From: Nitrosopumilus sp. | Lineage (GTDB): Archaea; Thermoproteota; Nitrososphaeria; Nitrososphaerales; Nitrosopumilaceae | NCBI GenBank assembly: GCA_965205675.1 | Contig: OZ242186.1 | Span: 480,001-544,000 of the forward strand | DNA length: 64,000 bases | Reading direction: 5' to 3' | In this document: positions 1,434 to 25,930 of the stretch, piece by piece | Layout of the letters: the number at the start of each line of letters is the position of its first letter | Position numbering within the stretch: position 1 is the first letter of the stretch | Notes under the pieces: generated by a model | Databases searched by the model: none | The model's input: the letters and a program-made list of their open reading frames with translations, nothing else | Told to the model about the DNA's origin: nothing | Position numbers and translations under genes: made by a program

Positions 1434-2432
1434 ATGGCAAAAACATGGAAAGATTCCGATATCAGTCTTGATCCTATTAAAGATCAAATCGTTGCTGTAA
1501 TTGGTTATGGAATTCAGGGTGATGCACAAGCAAACAACATGAAAGACTCTGATCTTAATGTGATAATTGGCCTAAACGAAGGAGGTAATAGCTGGAAAAA
1601 GGCAGAAGATGACGGTCACAAAGTAATGTCTGTTGTAGATGCAACAAAACAAGCAGATATTGTTCACATATTGATCCCTGATATGATTCAAGGCCAAGTA
1701 TACAAAGATGAAATTGAACCCAATCTTTCAAAAGGAAAAGCATTGTCATTTTCTCATGCAGCTGCAATCTATTGGAAATGGATTGAAGCACCAAGCAATG
1801 TTGATTTAATCATGATTGCACCAAAGGGACCTGGTTCCAAAGTTCGAGAAACATATCTTGATAATTTTGGCACTCCTGCAATTGTTGCAGTTGAACAAGA
1901 TTTTACCGGAAAAGCTTGGGATAGGACACTAGGAATTGCAAAAGCAATTGGAAGTGCAAGAGCTGGATTAATCAAAACTACTTTTAAAGAAGAAGTGGAA
2001 ACTGATTGGTTTGGTGAGCAAGCAGATCTTTGTGGTGGAGCCGCTTCTATGGTAACAAACGCATTTGAGACTCTTGTTGAAGGCGGATATCAGCCAGAAA
2101 TTGCATACTTTGAAGTTTTACATGAACTCAAACTCATCGTAGATATGATTCAAAGATATGGAATCAATGGAATGTGGAGACGTGTAAGTGAAACTGCACG
2201 ATATGGTGGACTAACACGTGGACCAATGGTTATGGATACTGTAAGTAAAGCAAACATGAAAAAAGTTCTTACCATGATTCAAGATGGCACATTCAACAAT
2301 GAGTGGATTTCTGAATATCAGAAAAATGGTAAAGATGCATTTGATAAATACATGAAAGAATATGACGAACACCAAATTGAAAAAGTTGGTAAAGAAATGC
2401 GTAAAATGATGTGGCCTGATTCCACAGAGTGA
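1434..2432 (+). CDS. ilvC: Ketol-acid reductoisomerase
   Basis: IGYGIQG nucleotide-binding motif, APKGPG, ETDWFGEQADLCGG, AYFEVLHELKLIVD. Confidence 0.97.
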   Translation: MAKTWKDSDISLDPIKDQIVAVIGYGIQGDAQANNMKDSDLNVIIGLNEGGNSWKKAEDDGHKVMSVVDATKQADIVHILIPDMIQGQVYKDEIEPNLSKGKALSFSHAAAIYWKWIEAPSNVDLIMIAPKGPGSKVRETYLDNFGTPAIVAVEQDFTGKAWDRTLGIAKAIGSARAGLIKTTFKEEVETDWFGEQADLCGGAASMVTNAFETLVEGGYQPEIAYFEVLHELKLIVDMIQRYGINGMWRRVSETARYGGLTRGPMVMDTVSKANMKKVLTMIQDGTFNNEWISEYQKNGKDAFDKYMKEYDEHQIEKVGKEMRKMMWPDSTE

Positions 2433-2443
2433 CTCATCATTTT

Positions 2444-2481
2444 TGTTGTATCCCAAAACCAATTCGTCTCTTATTCCGCAT
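2444..2481. repeat. Isolated IS481-like right-end relic
   Basis: 33/38 identical to 11294-11331, the end of the IS481 remnant. Confidence 0.65.
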
Positions 2482-2564
2482 CTAATTCCAGTAGATAGGA
2501 AAGTGCTACCCAACATATCTATGTGAAATCTTTAAAAACATTTACACTCTTTTGCAACACATGA

Positions 2565-2745
2565 GAATGGCTACCGCTCGAGATGATCCCATTCATTTTC
2601 AAAAGATGAAACCGGACACATATCTATTCGAGGATCTCCCTCAGTACCATTCTTCATCCATTTATCAGAACCATGCCGCAGTTACAAAACGAGGATCTCC
2701 CTCAATATGTTTAACGAGGATTATAGTTCTGATCATAATGTTTCA
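2565..2745 (-). ncRNA. Putative IS110 bridge/seek RNA
   Basis: Two stem-internal-loop-hairpin modules, each capped by TGAGGGAGATCCTCG (plus-strand copies 2629-2643 and 2690-2704); outer stems 2664-2674/2723-2733 and 2605-2610/2653-2658. Confidence 0.65.
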
Positions 2746-3747
2746 TTATGCATTTTTGATGCACTGGTAAAATGTCATGTTGTTTTTTAACATCCAGTAA
2801 ATTATTCTCAACAGTTTGGATGCTGCTGCCACTGCAGCTTTTGATGTCCCCCTCTTTTTTGCAAGACGTTTGTAAAAATTTGTAATGGTGCTGTTTTTTG
2901 CATATCTTACATGAGAATGTACTGTCTCCACCAGAACCCAGCGTAACATGCTACTTCCTCTTCTTGTTATGGAACCATGGCGTATGGTGTCAGCTGAGTT
3001 TCTAACGGATGGTACAATTCCTGCATATGAACACAGTTTGTGAGAATCTGAAAATCTTTCGATATTGTCAATTTCAGAGGATATGGTTAATGCAGTAAAT
3101 CTTCCAACACCAGGTATTGATTCTAAGAGTTGTGCATTAGAATCATGTTTTAGAGCATCCTTGATTCTCATGTCTGACTCTGCGATTCTATCATTGATTG
3201 ATATTATCATCTTGAGATATCCATCTATTCGATAGTCATCTAATCCCAACAGTTTGTGCACACATGAATCAGAAAATGCAGTTCCTGGTATCTTGATTGC
3301 ATTTTGTAAGGTTATACTGTGAATCAAATTTTTCATCCTTGTCCTGTTGCGGACTAGTTTGGTTCTATATCTCACCAGTTGTCTTGTTTGCACGGTATCT
3401 TTTTCTGGTACATGACAAGATGAGATGTATCCTCCTCTTAGCAAATCTGCCAAGATGTGAGCATCAATCTTGTCAGTTTTTTTCTTTGATGCTGCAATTG
3501 CTTTTGTGTGATATGGGTTTGATAGTATTACATCAAATCCTAGTTCGTCTCGCAGAAACCTAAACACGCCATACCAGACAGATGATGATTCCATTACACA
3601 TTTTGAGTTTTTTGGGATTGCAGAAAATACTTTTTTGATATCCTCTCTGGTGTTTGTAATTTTTTCATTGAATAATGTATGTCCTTTATCATCCATTGTT
3701 TCGACCTGTAAGAATTCTTTGTGCAAATCAATTCCGACATAGGTCAT
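2746..3747 (-). CDS. IS110 family transposase/recombinase (frame open to GTG at 3855; likely start MTYVGIDLHK)
   Basis: YVGIDLHK, MESS and KTDKIDA (DEDD RuvC-like); SIPGVG; YAGIVPSVRNSA (Tnp20 serine loop). Confidence 0.93.
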   Translation of the reverse strand: MTYVGIDLHKEFLQVETMDDKGHTLFNEKITNTREDIKKVFSAIPKNSKCVMESSSVWYGVFRFLRDELGFDVILSNPYHTKAIAASKKKTDKIDAHILADLLRGGYISSCHVPEKDTVQTRQLVRYRTKLVRNRTRMKNLIHSITLQNAIKIPGTAFSDSCVHKLLGLDDYRIDGYLKMIISINDRIAESDMRIKDALKHDSNAQLLESIPGVGRFTALTISSEIDNIERFSDSHKLCSYAGIVPSVRNSADTIRHGSITRRGSSMLRWVLVETVHSHVRYAKNSTITNFYKRLAKKRGTSKAAVAAASKLLRIIYWMLKNNMTFYQCIKNA

Positions 3748-3862
3748 GGGTTTTGTCTTTCTAGTCCTAATGATTTTCTTTGGCTTTTTCTTGGAGATGT
3801 ATCTTTTAGAAACTATAGAATCAGCAGTACCATCTAAATTTCGTTGTTTATTCACATATGGT

Positions 3863-4700
3863 TACTCTCTAACATAAGTTCGTCAACCATCCTCTCGTTG
3901 CATATACTTGAGAATGTCTAAATTGAATCGTCTGGTTCTGTAATATCTGGAGATATTATTTTTCAGATTACTCAGAGATGACAGATATTGTGACACCAAC
4001 AAATTGTATTTTCCTGGGCTTCCATACTTCCTCAACTGCATTGAACTGTGGTGAGTCTTTTGAAAACCAATTCAATAGAATATCATCTGTATTCTCATCA
4101 AGATATTTTTGTACTAGTTTTGATCTGTGTTGTGGTGCTCAGTCTACATAGACTAGAATCTTGCCAAACTTTCTGTGCAATTCCTTTAGATAATCCAAAA
4201 AACAGTATTGATCAAATTTTTCATATTGTCTGAATAATTGCCTGCCGTCATGAGTCAGTGCATCAAAAATGATTGTTTTTTGATGTGTTCCATTTGCCAA
4301 AATGATTGGACATGTTCCTTTCTTTATCGCCCATCTTTTTTCTAAATATTGCATCTGTAGTAAAGATGGACTCGTCTTGTGATAGTATGGTAAAGCATTC
4401 TTCTATTTTTGAAGCAATTTGTTCTTTGGAGTTTTTTTTAAAACCAGAGTTTTTCCTCTGGTGTTGCAGAATTAACAAATCTTTTTGCTGCAACCTTTGA
4501 AACAAATCCTCATTTGTGTAATAATTGATACCCATGAACCTCATAATATCTTATTCCCGATTTTTCATAAATTAAATTTATCACTTGTTTTGCACTCCAG
4601 CCTGACTGGTTTTCTGCAATTTGTAGTTGGATGTTGACTGGTTTCTTTTTTGGTTTGTTTATTGTTATATTTTTTTGTAACTTTATCCTTTAAACACTAT
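3863..4700 (-). pseudogene. Decayed IS630-family transposase
   Basis: Frame-broken fragments ILSQDESIF, LVYVD*APQH, SPQFNAVEEVWK, ending ...FNLDILKYMQREDG; slippery TTTTAAAAAAAAC near 4432-4444. Confidence 0.75.
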
Positions 4701-14896: not shown

Positions 14897-15648
14897 TGAA
14901 ACCTATTCCAAGAATTTCTACAAGGGGATACTATGATCTTTCAAATGGATTAACTTTGAAACATAATTCGTATTACACTTATCCAAAAAATGATTTTAAA
15001 AAATTAATCAACTCTAAAGAATTTACAATTATGATTCATGGATTACGAAATGATAACGCCGGAGCTATTACTAAAGTTATCTTAGCAAAAAAACAATTAC
15101 ACAAATTAGGTTACAAACATACTGTGATTGGATATAGTTATGACTCAAACACTACGGGTGCACATTTAGTTAAACATGCAAAACATGCTCTTGCAGTAGG
15201 TCAAAAAATTGCAGTGAAAAATGGCAAAAATCTTGGAAAATTCATTGAAGATTTTAAATTATCTAGTCCTAAAACAAAGATTCGACTAATAGGTCATTCT
15301 TTGGGTTCTCAAGTAATTTTGAGTACTTTGGAATATCTTTCAAAAAAGAAACAAAACATTGGAATTGTAGAGAGTGTGTATCTCTTTGGCGCATCTATAA
15401 CTGAAGATGTTCCCTCATCAAAAAAATATGGTAAAATTCTTCAATCTGTAGTTAATTCAAAAATAATAAATCATTATGCACCAACTGATGAAGTTCTTAA
15501 TTGGGCAAATCATAAAAAATATGTCAAGGGACCTCTAGGACTAAATGGAGCTGTTGGCAAACCTGTGAAAAAATATCTACAAAAATTAGTAAAACCAAAA
15601 AACCACAGATTTGCAAGTTATGCTAGTGTTTTGAATTCCTTTCCCTAG
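14896..15648 (+). CDS. Alpha/beta hydrolase (DUF726/DUF900-like)
   Basis: IHGL and GHSLG nucleophile elbow. Confidence 0.8.
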   Translation: MKPIPRISTRGYYDLSNGLTLKHNSYYTYPKNDFKKLINSKEFTIMIHGLRNDNAGAITKVILAKKQLHKLGYKHTVIGYSYDSNTTGAHLVKHAKHALAVGQKIAVKNGKNLGKFIEDFKLSSPKTKIRLIGHSLGSQVILSTLEYLSKKKQNIGIVESVYLFGASITEDVPSSKKYGKILQSVVNSKIINHYAPTDEVLNWANHKKYVKGPLGLNGAVGKPVKKYLQKLVKPKNHRFASYASVLNSFP

Positions 15649-25139: not shown

Positions 25140-25716
25140 GATCAGGAGTTTGTAAATTCAACTGCTATTGAGGAAAAACTCTGGTTTAAAAAAAATCTAA
25201 AAAGAAAATAACTTTAAAAATAGCAAAAAATGTTTACATCTCTTGTACAGGATTGAGTCCATCTTTACTGCATATACAATATCTAGAAAAAAGATGGACG
25301 GAATCAAAATCACTGGTGTCACGTTCACTGAAATATACTACAGAAGACTCAAGACACTAGGAGATTCTAGAATGGATAGATTCCTACGACAGATAAGTTA
25401 TTTGAATCTGTAGATTGCAGAGATTAATTCTAAAGTATATGCGATTGTAAAGACCAATCCTGATATAATACTAATAAACTCAATTCTTGGAATTGGTGAT
25501 TATTCTGCAATAATGACATCATCAGAAATTACAGATATTGAAAGATTCAACGATTCTCACAAGTTGTGTGCATATACAGAAGATGTGCCATCAGTTAGAA
25601 ATTTTGTTGATACCATACATCATGGTTTTATCACAAAACAAGGTTGGTGTATCAAAAATACTATGGGCGATTTATTGGATGCTAAAGGAGATGTGAGAGT
25701 TTGTGGAAAATTATAG
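25140..25716 (+). pseudogene. Decayed IS110 transposase
   Basis: SEITDIERFNDSHKLCAY..VPSVRN..DTIHHG closely matches the C-terminus of 2746..3747. Confidence 0.82.
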
Positions 25717-25866
25717 TTAGGACTGCAAGTCGCGTTAAAATCTAGAGAGACAAGGCCTCGTCTGGTAACTGCAAACAATCCTAACGAAGAGATGAAGATA
25801 GCATTGAGGATATGAGCTTCATATGGATATATGTCTGCATATTTTTTGTTTGGAATCATTCTCTAA
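25716..25866 (+). ncRNA. Degenerate homologue of the putative IS110 bridge RNA
   Basis: Stem GTTAGGACTG/CAATCCTAAC enclosing CGTTAAA..CCTCGT..GTAACTGC, then GATGAAGA..TGAGG..GATAT.TGTC, as in 2565-2745. Confidence 0.55.
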
Positions 25867-25930
25867 TGTTTGAAAAGAGAGAAAACGTATAAAAATAATT
25901 TGCATGTATAATTCTAACATTATTGCCATG

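What the first reader, a model, noticed from the sequence alone, without database searches (positions are those of the whole stretch)
2550..3850. Archaeal IS110/IS1111 element with a readable bridge/seek RNA and candidate target guides
Downstream of an intact DEDD transposase are two modules of outer stem, large internal loop and GAGG-GAGAT-CCTC cap. This matches the two-loop architecture established for IS110 bridge RNAs, and the 3' location is typical of the IS1111 group. On the minus strand, loop 1 carries TAAACATAT (2705-2713) and TTTTGTAAC (2681-2689). The putative left flank contains TAAACA (3845-3850), and the right flank contains GTTGCAAAA (2550-2558), whose reverse complement matches the second loop strand 8/9. 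Loop 2 contains ATGGTACT, identical to part of the left subterminal IR. Guide assignments are inference from short AT-rich matches.
Basis: partly seen in the sequence, partly recalled or inferred. Interest (0 to 1): 0.7.

Follow-up and report, generated by a model that had tools for sequence, protein, structure and literature searches.

The report
Archaeal IS1111-type element with bridge RNA
This is an ordinary-looking but intact archaeal jumping gene of the IS110/IS1111 kind that carries, behind its recombinase gene, a two-loop guide RNA whose loops match the DNA next to and at the ends of the element, as in the bacterial bridge/seek RNAs described in 2024.

Summary
The window holds one of four 99%-identical copies of a 1.35-kb IS110-family element on the minus strand. 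It runs from 2516 to 3864, not 2550 to 3850. It encodes an intact DEDD/Ser recombinase (2746-3747) and a 3' non-coding region with two stem/internal-loop/cap modules.

Homologues occur in two sister families in the same archaeal genome and in 11 of 150 related genomes searched. Across them the five helices covary.
- Loop 1, 5' strand: complementary to the right flank.
- Loop 1, 3' strand: identical to the left flank plus TAAC.
- Loop 2, 3' strand: copies the right end (A/G covaries in 18 of 18 elements).
- Loop 2, 5' strand: complements the left end and repeats a site 31 nt inside it.

Permutation tests gave 0 of 20000 for each of the three guide comparisons. Polarity, 3' position and subterminal repeats fit the IS1111 group.

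For this family itself the left-target guide matches its own insertion sites poorly.

No RNA data were available. Verdict: a new archaeal member of a known kind. Noteworthy details are a sister element aimed at its relatives' left ends and an unexplained internal left-end site.

The parts
2516..3864 (-). Whole insertion sequence (family A), counted with a TA at each junction; 1349 bp
   Evidence: Four copies at 99% identity diverge outside these points. Loose ends of contigs from other strains diverge at 2513 and 3865. Ends also follow by homology to sister families whose empty sites are known.
3863..3864 (-). Left copy of the TA dinucleotide (probable crossover core)
   Evidence: TA stands at both junctions of families A, B and C. 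Empty versus occupied sites of C and B show one TA before insertion and two after. For A this is inferred by homology.
2516..2517 (-). Right copy of the TA dinucleotide
   Evidence: Same evidence as the left copy. Copy c2 has TT here.
3851..3858 (-). Left subterminal inverted repeat TATGTGAA
   Evidence: It is the reverse complement of 2520-2527 and is conserved in relatives.
2520..2527 (-). Right subterminal inverted repeat TTCACATA
3858..3862 (-). ACCAT, the first bases of the left end (right-donor half site)
   Evidence: It is complementary to AUGG U of the loop-2 5' strand. It covaries in L037 (ATCAT/ATGAT) and in own family C (ACTAT/ATAG).
3826..3833 (-). Internal left-end site ATGGTACT, identical to the loop-2 5' strand
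   Evidence: Identical words of 6-8 nt occur at +31..+37 in 9 of 11 family representatives (4 and 5 nt in L033 and L037). Cognate sum 74 against a permuted mean of 53.2 and maximum of 71, 0 of 20000. It pairs with ACCAT of the left end in the alignment fold.
2746..3747 (-). Recombinase gene (333 aa from ATG 3747; stop at 2746-2748)
   Evidence: Pfam PF01548 + PF02371. NCBIfam NF033542 'IS110 family RNA-guided transposase' 249.8 bits, cut-off 140. PDB ISCro4 2.3e-12 and IS621 3.1e-12.
2664..2733 (-). Module 1 = target-binding loop. Outer stem 2726-2733/2664-2671, inner stem ~2715-2719/2676-2680, cap 2691-2703
   Evidence: RNAalifold helices 1-3 with compensatory changes.
2704..2714 (-). Loop-1 5' strand TTAAACATATT: right-target guide, complementary to the top strand of TA + right flank
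   Evidence: Cognate versus permuted flanks in 14 families: 104 against mean 74.9 and max 92, 0 of 20000. The window copy scores 7 of 11.
2681..2690 (-). Loop-1 3' strand GTTTTG+TAAC: left-target guide (variable) plus TA + AC of the element's left end
   Evidence: Cognate versus permuted left flanks in 12 families: 43 against mean 19.0 and max 36, 0 of 20000. The window copy scores only 1 of 6.
2605..2659 (-). Module 2 = donor-binding loop. GGATGAAG 2652-2659, cap 2630-2642, TGTCC 2614-2618, TTTCATC 2605-2611
   Evidence: Helices 4-5. The 3' partner of GGATG is ambiguous between TGTCC and TTCATC.
2643..2651 (-). Loop-2 5' strand AATGGTACT (right-donor guide)
2619..2629 (-). Loop-2 3' strand GAATAGATATG (left-donor guide; it contains ATAGATA, the last seven bases of the right end CATAGATA, 2516-2522)
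   Evidence: The A/G position agrees with the right end in 18 of 18 elements.
3865..3872 (-). Left flank (left target) of this copy; it is the end of an IS630-like repeat
2505..2515 (-). Right flank (right target) TGTTGGGTAGC, downstream of a 332-aa ORF on the + strand (1434-2432) that I read as ilvC without a family search

Best explanation
The locus is an intact IS1111-type member of the IS110 family in an archaeal genome.

Layout on the minus strand: TA | ACCAT-sTIR ... recombinase gene ... target-binding module, donor-binding module ... sTIR-AGA | TA.

Proposed RNA. The two modules are proposed to be made as one RNA of about 130 nt. It would probably be cut from the 3' end of the recombinase transcript, because module 1 starts 12 nt after the stop codon. 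It acts as a bridge/seek RNA.

Target-binding loop:
[quoted passage not shown] Donor-binding loop:
[quoted passage not shown] Reaction. Recombinase dimers on the two caps (the identical GAGG-GAGAU-CCUC hairpins) would bring a circular copy and the target together. Strands would be exchanged at the shared TA.

Shown here: family membership of the protein, copy number and ends, conserved fold, and covariation of all four loop strands with flanks and ends across relatives.

Inferred: that the RNA is made, that it binds the protein, the exact crossover point, and the circle intermediate.
For: Protein:
- Pfam DEDD_Tnp_IS110 + Transposase_20.
- NCBIfam IS110 RNA-guided transposase, 249.8 bits against a cut-off of 140.
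- Full-length alignment to IS621 and ISCro4 with GID, ES, TDKID and G-x-x-P-x-x-x-x-S conserved.

Mobility:
- Four copies at 99% identity plus fragments in the genome.
- Further junctions in contigs from other strains.

Ends:
- for family A.
- For sister family C, paralogous empty sites read ..AAATCCAA-TA-ATTACAAT.. and the occupied site reads ..CCAA-TA-[IS]-TA-ATTACAAT...
- For sister family B, the uninterrupted and interrupted left ends of C can be compared.

Fold (19 sequences):
- 96.7% of cells paired, against 34-45% when the partners are slid.
- 15 of 24 pairs have double changes, against 3-7 when slid.
- 0 of 500 shuffles reached the observed score.
- Conserved G-U pairs fit a structure on the sense strand only.

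Guides:
- Right-target and left-target guides match cognate flanks far better than non-cognate ones. Each gave 0 of 20000 permutations.
- Copies in G044 differ at single guide bases (ACG/AAA/AAG). In three of the four copies the flank carries the same bases.
- The A/G of the donor-loop 3' strand equals that of the right end in 18 of 18 elements.
- The donor-loop 5' strand covaries with the left end.

Type: the guide order (top-strand-complementary segment 5' of the other) and the 3' non-coding region match what Siddiquee et al. report for IS1111 elements (PMC11187229, sections 6, 9, 12 read).
Against: - No RNA evidence. No RNA run holds the stretch, so expression is unknown.
- Rfam has no family that matches.
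- For family A itself the left-target guide GUUUUG matches its own left flanks only at position -1. It scores 1 of 6 in the window copy and at most 3 of 6 in the others.
- The right-target guide matches only TA+TGT(T).
- A 13-of-16 match to the predicted target (all of the left guide, TA and TGTT) stands unoccupied in 15 copies of another IS.
- The register between the right-target guide and the right end varies by up to 4 nt among families. The crossover point is therefore not fixed by sequence alone.
- The inner stem of module 1 has a U-C mismatch in family A.
- The donor-loop 5' strand pairs with only 5 nt of the left end and not with the TA.
- A/G agreement across relatives partly reflects shared descent.
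Confidence: 0.85

Rival explanations
1. The element spans about 2550-3850, the loop-1 strand TAAACATAT reads the left flank (TAAACA at 3845-3850), and TTTTGTAAC reads the right flank (GTTGCAAAA at 2550-2558).
For: The motifs exist at those coordinates, and the 8/9 complementarity is arithmetically correct.
Against: Identity among the four copies continues to 3864 and 2516, so both motifs lie inside the element. In relatives the corresponding internal sequences do not follow their loops, whereas the true flanks do.
Confidence: 0.02
2. The two modules act as DNA (cruciforms or protein-binding palindromes at the right end) or as a terminator/3' UTR structure. They are not a guide RNA, and the matches to flanks come from target preference of the protein.
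For: No RNA data. The caps are perfect small palindrome-like hairpins. T-runs follow module 2 in many but not all relatives.
Against: Conserved G-U pairs would be C-A on the other strand (columns 28-80 GU in 18 of 19, columns 105-152 GU in 19 of 19). The loop strands, not the stems, track each element's own flanks, with single-base changes. The protein belongs to a family shown to use such RNAs (PMC11208160 passages; PMC11187229 sections 6, 9, 10, 12, 13).
Confidence: 0.05
3. The RNA is a bridge RNA, but in family A its target loop no longer chooses the sites. The copies would have spread with relaxed specificity (TA + TGT and a G at -1), or with help in trans from sister elements, or the present guides postdate the insertions.
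For: The left guide matches 1-3 of 6 bases at the four genomic copies and 2 of 6 at a fifth junction from run X6. Fifteen near-ideal sites are unoccupied. In other strains A sits in the left end of a C-like element, a site that fits B's guides better than A's.
Against: All four copies carry the same guides and are 99% identical. The right guide does match TA+TGT(T) at all five right junctions, with TT for TA in copy c2. Sister families B and C, built the same way, sit in sites that fit their guides.
Confidence: 0.3

Closest known systems
IS1111-group elements with seekRNA (ISEc11, ISPa11, ISKpn4; Siddiquee et al. 2024, PMC11187229, sections 6, 9, 10, 12, 13 read)
   Same: DEDD recombinase. Longer non-coding region downstream of the gene (230 nt against 117 nt upstream). 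Subterminal inverted repeats with short terminal extensions. The RNA segment complementary to the top strand lies 5' of the one complementary to the bottom strand. Each lineage has its own target.
   Different: Archaeal host. At most about 36% protein identity to the best hits in a tblastn of 72,556 plasmid records (rhizobial and haloarchaeal plasmids; the named elements themselves were not compared). The conserved serine is followed by A (NSA) rather than G. The stem and cap sequences are specific to this clade: the covariance model hits only the same GTDB family, 3 of 19 genomes there and 0 of 131 elsewhere in the phylum sample.
IS621 bridge RNA (Durrant et al. 2024, PMC11208160 passages; Hiraizumi et al. 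2026 abstract, PMC13626964)
   Same: Two internal loops, target loop first and donor loop second. Each loop reads opposite strands on the two sides of a shared core dinucleotide. The guide extends 2 nt past the core into the partner DNA, resembling handshake guides.
   Different: The RNA lies in the right end, not the left. The strand order within the loops is reversed. The core is apparently TA rather than CT (CT is recalled, not checked). The donor-loop 5' strand does not cover the core. There is an extra matching site inside the left end.
IS4321/IS5075 and ISEc21, IS110-family elements that target other mobile elements (titles and text cited in PMC11187229 section 12 and reference lists)
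   Same: Sister family B here is programmed (guides AAACUA|UA and UGUGAAAA) for the left end of family C and A elements. It occupies 8 of 14 counted C left ends plus one A left-end fragment.
   Different: The target is the left end of a close relative of the same clade. This gives tandem B-C arrays.
ISPpu9/MITEPpu9 (PMC12288879, passages)
   Same: There is a tnp-less derivative keeping ends and RNA part: a contig in run X4 joins 3792 to 2680 at higher depth. A downstream RNA shares sequence with the region upstream of the recombinase gene.
   Different: ISPpu9 is an IS110-group element with its bridge RNA upstream. Its Ssr9/Asr9 pairing is long. Here the shared word is only 6-10 nt.

Membership tests
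IS110 family (DEDD recombinase) | N-terminal RuvC-like DEDD domain and C-terminal Tnp domain | tested here: met
   PF01548 1.3e-28 and PF02371 1.3e-22. NF033542 249.8 bits, cut-off 140.
IS110 family (DEDD recombinase) | Catalytic D, E, D, D and the conserved Ser of G-x-x-P-x-x-x-x-S | tested here: met
   D7, E53, D92, D95 and S251 (numbered from ATG 3747) lie in GID, MES, TDKID and GIVPSVRNSA. They align to ISCro4 GID, MEA, TDAVD and GLTPRRYESG. Their catalytic role is taken from the literature.
IS110 family (DEDD recombinase) | Site-specific insertion without long target duplication | tested here: met
   Only a TA is shared at both junctions. Empty and occupied sites were compared for families C and B. 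For A this holds by homology.
IS1111 group | Subterminal inverted repeats of 7-17 bp set in from the ends | tested here: met
   TATGTGAA / TTCACATA (8 bp), 6 nt and 4 nt from the junction bases. The range is quoted from PMC11208160.
IS1111 group | Longer non-coding region and RNA downstream of the recombinase gene | tested here: met
   230 nt downstream against 117 nt upstream. Criterion from PMC11187229 section 6.
IS1111 group | Top-strand-complementary guide lies 5' of the bottom-strand-complementary guide | tested here: met
   Criterion from PMC11187229 sections 9 and 12.
IS1111 group | Recombinase clusters with IS1111 rather than IS110-type proteins in a tree | not tested
   No named ISfinder reference set was at hand. 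PDB hits to ISCro4 and IS621 score alike.
Bridge / seek RNA | Conserved fold with two internal loops closed by hairpins | tested here: met
Bridge / seek RNA | Loop strands covary with target flanks | tested here: met
   (0 of 20000 for both sides). The match is weak for family A's own left flank.
Bridge / seek RNA | Loop strands covary with the element's ends (donor) | tested here: met
Bridge / seek RNA | The RNA is expressed and co-purifies with the recombinase | not testable with these tools
   No RNA run is listed for this stretch.
Bridge / seek RNA | Circular intermediate with abutted ends | tested here: inconclusive
   No joint was seen in contigs of 4 runs. Contigs drop rare forms.

The most novel reading that the evidence does not exclude
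Donor recognition in this clade may use a third DNA site. The 5' strand of the donor loop is identical over 6-10 nt to a site 31 nt inside the left end, and the two covary (ATGGTACT, ATAGCAT, AAGGTTGT, ATGGCAA, ATGGTAG, ATGGTGC). That site is itself an inverted copy of the left terminus (ACCAT/ATGGT, with compensatory changes).

The RNA-recombinase complex could therefore bind the bottom strand inside the left end. This might hold a folded left end in the synapse. Alternatively it might let the complex sit on the region upstream of its own gene as an RNA-guided brake on recombinase expression.

I did not find either idea in the passages and sections I read of the bridge/seek RNA papers.
Probability: 0.3. 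Interest if true: 0.55.

Novelty: new member of a known kind. Interest (0 to 1): 0.4.

Why it matters
It adds a readable set of natural reprogramming examples to the bridge/seek RNA field. There are three sister elements in one small archaeal genome and about a dozen more in related genomes. All share one scaffold, carry different guides and have cognate sites that can be read off the genome.

It documents the system in an AT-rich archaeal lineage. It shows a member aimed at the left ends of its own relatives, which builds tandem arrays. It also flags two things a specialist could test:
- an internal left-end site that covaries with the donor loop;
- one family whose left guide does not explain where it sits.

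None of this changes the known mechanism.

Tried and rejected
- Rfam 15 over 2000-4500 at E up to 10 gave only chance hits.
- I first read GTAACC-AT as target sequence. I searched the genome for GTAACCATATGTTTAA and TAATAACTATAATTACAA. Relatives showed TAAC is the conserved start of the element, so I abandoned this reading.
- I first thought family B lacked a target loop. Its cap simply contains the stop codon.
- The same 13-mer cap in 23 other places looked like a shared RNA motif. It lies antisense to the codons for ..LEDLPRSGRP.. of a 1.1-kb IS630-like transposase, so it is a coincidence multiplied by copy number.
- The abundant TAATTRCGCAAGAGGTCTA ends (122 copies) are termini of other transposons. 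They are not the general target of family C, although one C copy abuts such an end.
- No RNA holder was listed for the stretch.
- Contigs of runs X1, X3, X4 and X6 gave no empty site and no circle joint.
- The ATGTG that follows ATAGAT in the donor-loop 3' strand looked like a handshake with the right flank. In relatives that position is a conserved N-N-T-G-T-C-C motif that does not follow the flank.
- The left-end site as an archaeal TATA box: the conserved word is GGAAATTYAGATGG, which is not TATA-like.
- Supplementary tables of Durrant et al. and Siddiquee et al., which list predicted RNAs and targets per ISfinder element and may include archaeal ones, could not be seen.
Full report
**What is there**

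On the minus strand of the window an ORF runs from 3855 to 2746, with a likely ATG at 3747 giving 333 aa.
- It matches Pfam DEDD_Tnp_IS110 (1.3e-28) and Transposase_20 (1.3e-22).
- It matches NCBIfam NF033542 'IS110 family RNA-guided transposase' at 249.8 bits, against a cut-off of 140.
- It aligns over its whole length to the IS621 recombinase and over two stretches (residues 3-133 and 194-326) to the ISCro4 recombinase in the PDB (3.1e-12 and 2.3e-12). The motifs GID, MES, TDKID and GIVPSVRNSA are in place.

The genome is archaeal. It has full-length archaeal SSU rRNA at 1467 bits and archaeal LSU rRNA. It is 2.01 Mb in one contig with 33.7% G+C.

Downstream of the stop codon the 13-mer GAGGGAGATCCTC occurs twice, at 2691-2703 and 2630-2642. 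Each copy caps a stem with a large internal loop.

**Ends**

The genome holds four copies at 99% identity. These are the window copy, two other complete copies, and one split by a 6.5-kb insertion. There is also a 206-bp left-end fragment.

Aligned with their flanks, the copies diverge upstream of TAACCATATGTG (3864) and downstream of CACATAGATA (2516). The element is therefore 2516-3864, not 2550-3850.

TAAACA at 3845-3850 is 14 nt inside the left end. GTTGCAAAA at 2550-2558 is 33 nt inside the right end.

The element has 8-bp subterminal inverted repeats: TATGTGAA at 3851-3858 and TTCACATA at 2520-2527. It has 117 nt of non-coding sequence upstream of the gene and 230 nt downstream.

The window copy sits between the end of an IS630-like repeat on its left and, on its right, the 3' side of a 332-aa ORF on the + strand (1434-2432). 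I read that ORF as ilvC without a family search.

**Relatives**

The same genome carries two sister families at 67-68% nucleotide identity. I call them B (9 copies) and C (12 RNA-model hits).

A search with the 261-nt RNA-plus-right-end region found homologues in 11 of 150 other genomes of the same GTDB family. From these I parsed 19 elements of about 14 distinct lineages.

A covariance model built from them finds 29 sites in the own genome. In a phylum-wide sample it hits only the own family: 3 of 19 genomes there, and 0 of 131 genomes in other families.

**Fold**

On a MAFFT alignment of 19 sequences, RNAalifold predicts five helices:
- an outer stem, an inner stem and a cap for module 1;
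- a closing stem and a cap for module 2.

Fifteen of the 24 pairs keep pairing through changes on both sides. Counting gives 96.7% of cells paired, against 34-45% when partners are slid by 1-3 columns. It gives 15 pairs with double changes against 3-7 when slid, and 0 of 500 shuffles reached the observed covariation score.

Several pairs are conserved G-U, for example columns 28-80 in 18 of 19 sequences and columns 105-152 in 19 of 19. This fits a structure on the sense strand, that is an RNA, and not a DNA cruciform.

The 3' partner of the invariant GGAUG of module 2 is ambiguous. TGTCC is predicted, but every element also has a downstream CATCC, TTCATC or CTTC that could pair with GGATGAAG.

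**Target loop**

Between the inner stem and the cap, module 1 has a 5' strand of 10-11 nt and a 3' strand of 10-11 nt. The two lengths sum to 21 in 16 of the 19 parsed elements.

The 3' strand is a variable stretch of 6-7 nt followed by a conserved TAAC (or TAAA, TAAT). The variable part is identical to the bases just left of the element. TAAC equals the element's first four bases. Examples of guide against flank:
- GGACGCA|TAA against CACGCA|TAACC
- GGTCAA|TAAC against TGTCAA|TAACC
- GGGGAAC|TAAC against TCGGAAC|TAACC
- own C: GTCTAA|TAAC against TCYAA|TAACT
- own B: GAAACTA|TAAC against TAACTA|TAACC
- L037 has TAAT where its left end reads TAATC

The reverse complement of the 5' strand matches TA plus the right flank. 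Examples:
- own C: AATAATTACAA against TA|ATTACAA
- own B: AATGTGAAAA against TA|TGTGAATAA
- L044: AACTAGGATAA against TA|ATAGGATAG
- L054: ATACTGATAA against TA|CTGTTCA

The four G044 copies differ at single guide bases (..ACG..AAA and ..AAG, the last in two copies). In three of the four copies the flank carries the same bases.

I took one representative per lineage and permuted which flank goes with which guide.
- Right side, 14 lineages: cognate sum 104, against a mean of 74.9 and a maximum of 92. That is 0 of 20000 permutations.
- Left side, 12 lineages: cognate sum 43, against a mean of 19.0 and a maximum of 36. That is 0 of 20000 permutations.

I dropped L041 and L056 because their module 1 could not be parsed. 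Near-duplicate copies (L036, L045, L059, L051) were not used as representatives.

The polarity is a top-strand-complementary segment 5' of a bottom-strand-complementary one. That is the order Siddiquee et al. report for IS1111 elements. [quoted passage not shown]

**Donor loop**

The 3' strand of module 2 begins (G/T)AT(A/G)GATA, which is the last bases of the right end, CAT(A/G)GATA. The A/G choice agrees in 18 of 18 elements with a readable right end. Part of that agreement is shared descent.

The 5' strand carries AUGGU, complementary to ACCAT. ACCAT is the first bases of the left end after TA. It changes together with the left end in L037 (ATGAT with ATCAT) and in own C (ATAG with CTAT).

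**The crossover**

TA stands at both junctions in all three own families.

For C there are true empty sites. Two paralogous sequences read ..AAATCCAA-TA-ATTACAATTGA... The occupied copies read ..AAATCCAA-TA-[ACTATATG...CACATGGA]-TA-ATTACAATTGA...

For B the uninterrupted target is the left end of C, AATAACTA-TA-TGTGAATAAG. The occupied form is AACTA-TA-[ACCATATGTGCC...CACATGGA]-TA-TGTGAAT.

So one TA becomes two, as for the core dinucleotide of IS621. For family A this is inferred by homology. One A copy has TT at the right junction.

The register between the right-target guide and the right end differs by up to 4 nt among lineages. I therefore cannot fix the cleavage positions from sequence.

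**What does not fit**

For family A, the finding itself, the left guide GUUUUG matches the left flanks of its four genomic copies, and of a fifth junction from run X6, almost only at position -1. That position is G in all five. The match is 1-3 of 6.

The right guide matches TA+TGT(T) at all five right junctions, with TT for TA in copy c2. It scores 7 of 11 in the window copy.

A site with all of the left guide, TA and TGTT (GGAATGTTTTG-TA-TGTTATAT) stands unoccupied in 15 copies of another IS. A 15-of-16 site with CA instead of TA lies unoccupied in the window at 15169-15184.

So the loops of A are built like those of its relatives, but they do not explain A's present positions well. I give 0.3 to the reading that A spreads with relaxed left-side specificity.

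**An unexplained extra**

The donor-loop 5' strand is identical over 6-10 nt to a site 31-37 nt inside the left end (3826-3833 in the window). The words differ between lineages and change together:

| Word | Lineages |
|---|---|
| ATGGTACT | A, B |
| ATAGCAT | C |
| ATGGTGC | G080 |
| AAGGTTGT | G044 |
| ATGGCAA | G033 |
| ATGGTAG | G059 |

The cognate sum of longest shared words is 74, against a permuted mean of 53.2 and a maximum of 71. That is 0 of 20000 permutations over 11 lineages. Two lineages (L033, L037) share only 4-5 nt.

An alignment fold of the left ends finds a single conserved hairpin. It pairs the terminal ACCAT with this site, and 3 of 7 pairs show compensatory change.

Identity to the top strand means the RNA could pair with the bottom strand there. 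That is the opposite polarity to what the donor model needs at the terminus. I can offer only guesses: a folded left end in the synapse, or an RNA-guided brake on the recombinase gene. I did not find the feature in the parts of the papers I read. Supplements were closed.

**Sister family B**

B's target loop (AAACUA|UA.. and ..UGUGAAAA) is written for the left end of C and A. B occupies 8 of the 14 C-type left ends counted, plus one A left-end fragment, giving B-C tandems. Its recombinase ORF runs through the 5' half of module 1 and stops in the cap loop.

**Literature**

Bridge RNAs and seekRNAs of IS110/IS1111 elements were described in 2024. Durrant et al. predicted them in 93% of ISfinder IS1111 elements, and archaeal IS110 recombinases are known (662 in one survey). 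Sources were PMC11208160 passages, PMC11187229 sections, and bioRxiv 10.1101/2024.06.21.599552 passages.

My searches used 'seekRNA'+'IS1111', then 'bridge RNA'+'IS110'+'archaea', then 'IS1111'+'donor-binding loop'+'subterminal inverted'. They listed no paper on such an RNA in this archaeal lineage. That is a statement about those listings only.

**Verdict**

This is a real and well-supported feature. It is a new archaeal member of a known kind.

Noticed in passing
window 25414-25915 (+): A second, decayed IS110-type element of the C kind. It has a frameshifted recombinase remnant, a two-module RNA region (covariance-model hit 25711-25846, 85 bits) with different loop-1 strands (TTAAAATCTAG / GTCTGG), and a degenerate right end.
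   Followed up: partly
window 3866-~4400 (-), and at least 10 other places in the genome: An IS630/Tc1-like repeat ending ...CTTATGTTAGGAAGTA|TA. The copy next to the element has stops in its reading frames, and the studied element abuts its end.
   Followed up: partly
G000:C1 70649-71743 and 22 other copies: A 1.1-kb IS630-like IS whose transposase codons for LEDLPRSGRP read, on the other strand, the same 13-mer as the RNA cap. This is a coincidence.
   Followed up: yes
G000:C1, 122 places (e.g. 1109416, 755706): A shared terminal repeat ..TAATTRCGCAAGAGGTCTA belonging to several IS/MITE families. This 2-Mb genome is crowded with mobile elements nested in one another.
   Followed up: partly
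G000:C1 928747/927580, 1666274/1665107, 996682/997911, 1502583/1501416, 441875/440708: Tandem B-C pairs. Family B is inserted exactly at the TA of the left end of family C. One B copy sits in a left-end fragment of family A (953307-954612).
   Followed up: yes
run X4 laid on window 2680 and 3792: A contig joins 3792 to 2680 with 29 other letters between, at depth 194 against 21-54 for contigs confined to the recombinase gene. This looks like a tnp-less miniature derivative that keeps the left end, the donor loop and the right end.
   Followed up: no
window 15169-15184 (-): GTTTTGCATGTTTAAC is a 15-of-16 match to family A's predicted target. The only mismatch is in the TA core, and the site is unoccupied.
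   Followed up: no
left ends of the relatives (e.g. L044:2709-2843, L033:395-529); window ~3775-3790: A second conserved left-end motif, GCAAACAAACAGATTA, lies about 40-50 nt upstream of the recombinase start codon. It is weakly kept in family A (GCCAAAGAAAATCATTA). Its role is unknown.
   Followed up: no
G000:C1 1403286-1409825: The fourth copy of the element is split by a 6.5-kb insertion, with an 8-bp overlap of the two halves. The insertion was not examined.
   Followed up: no
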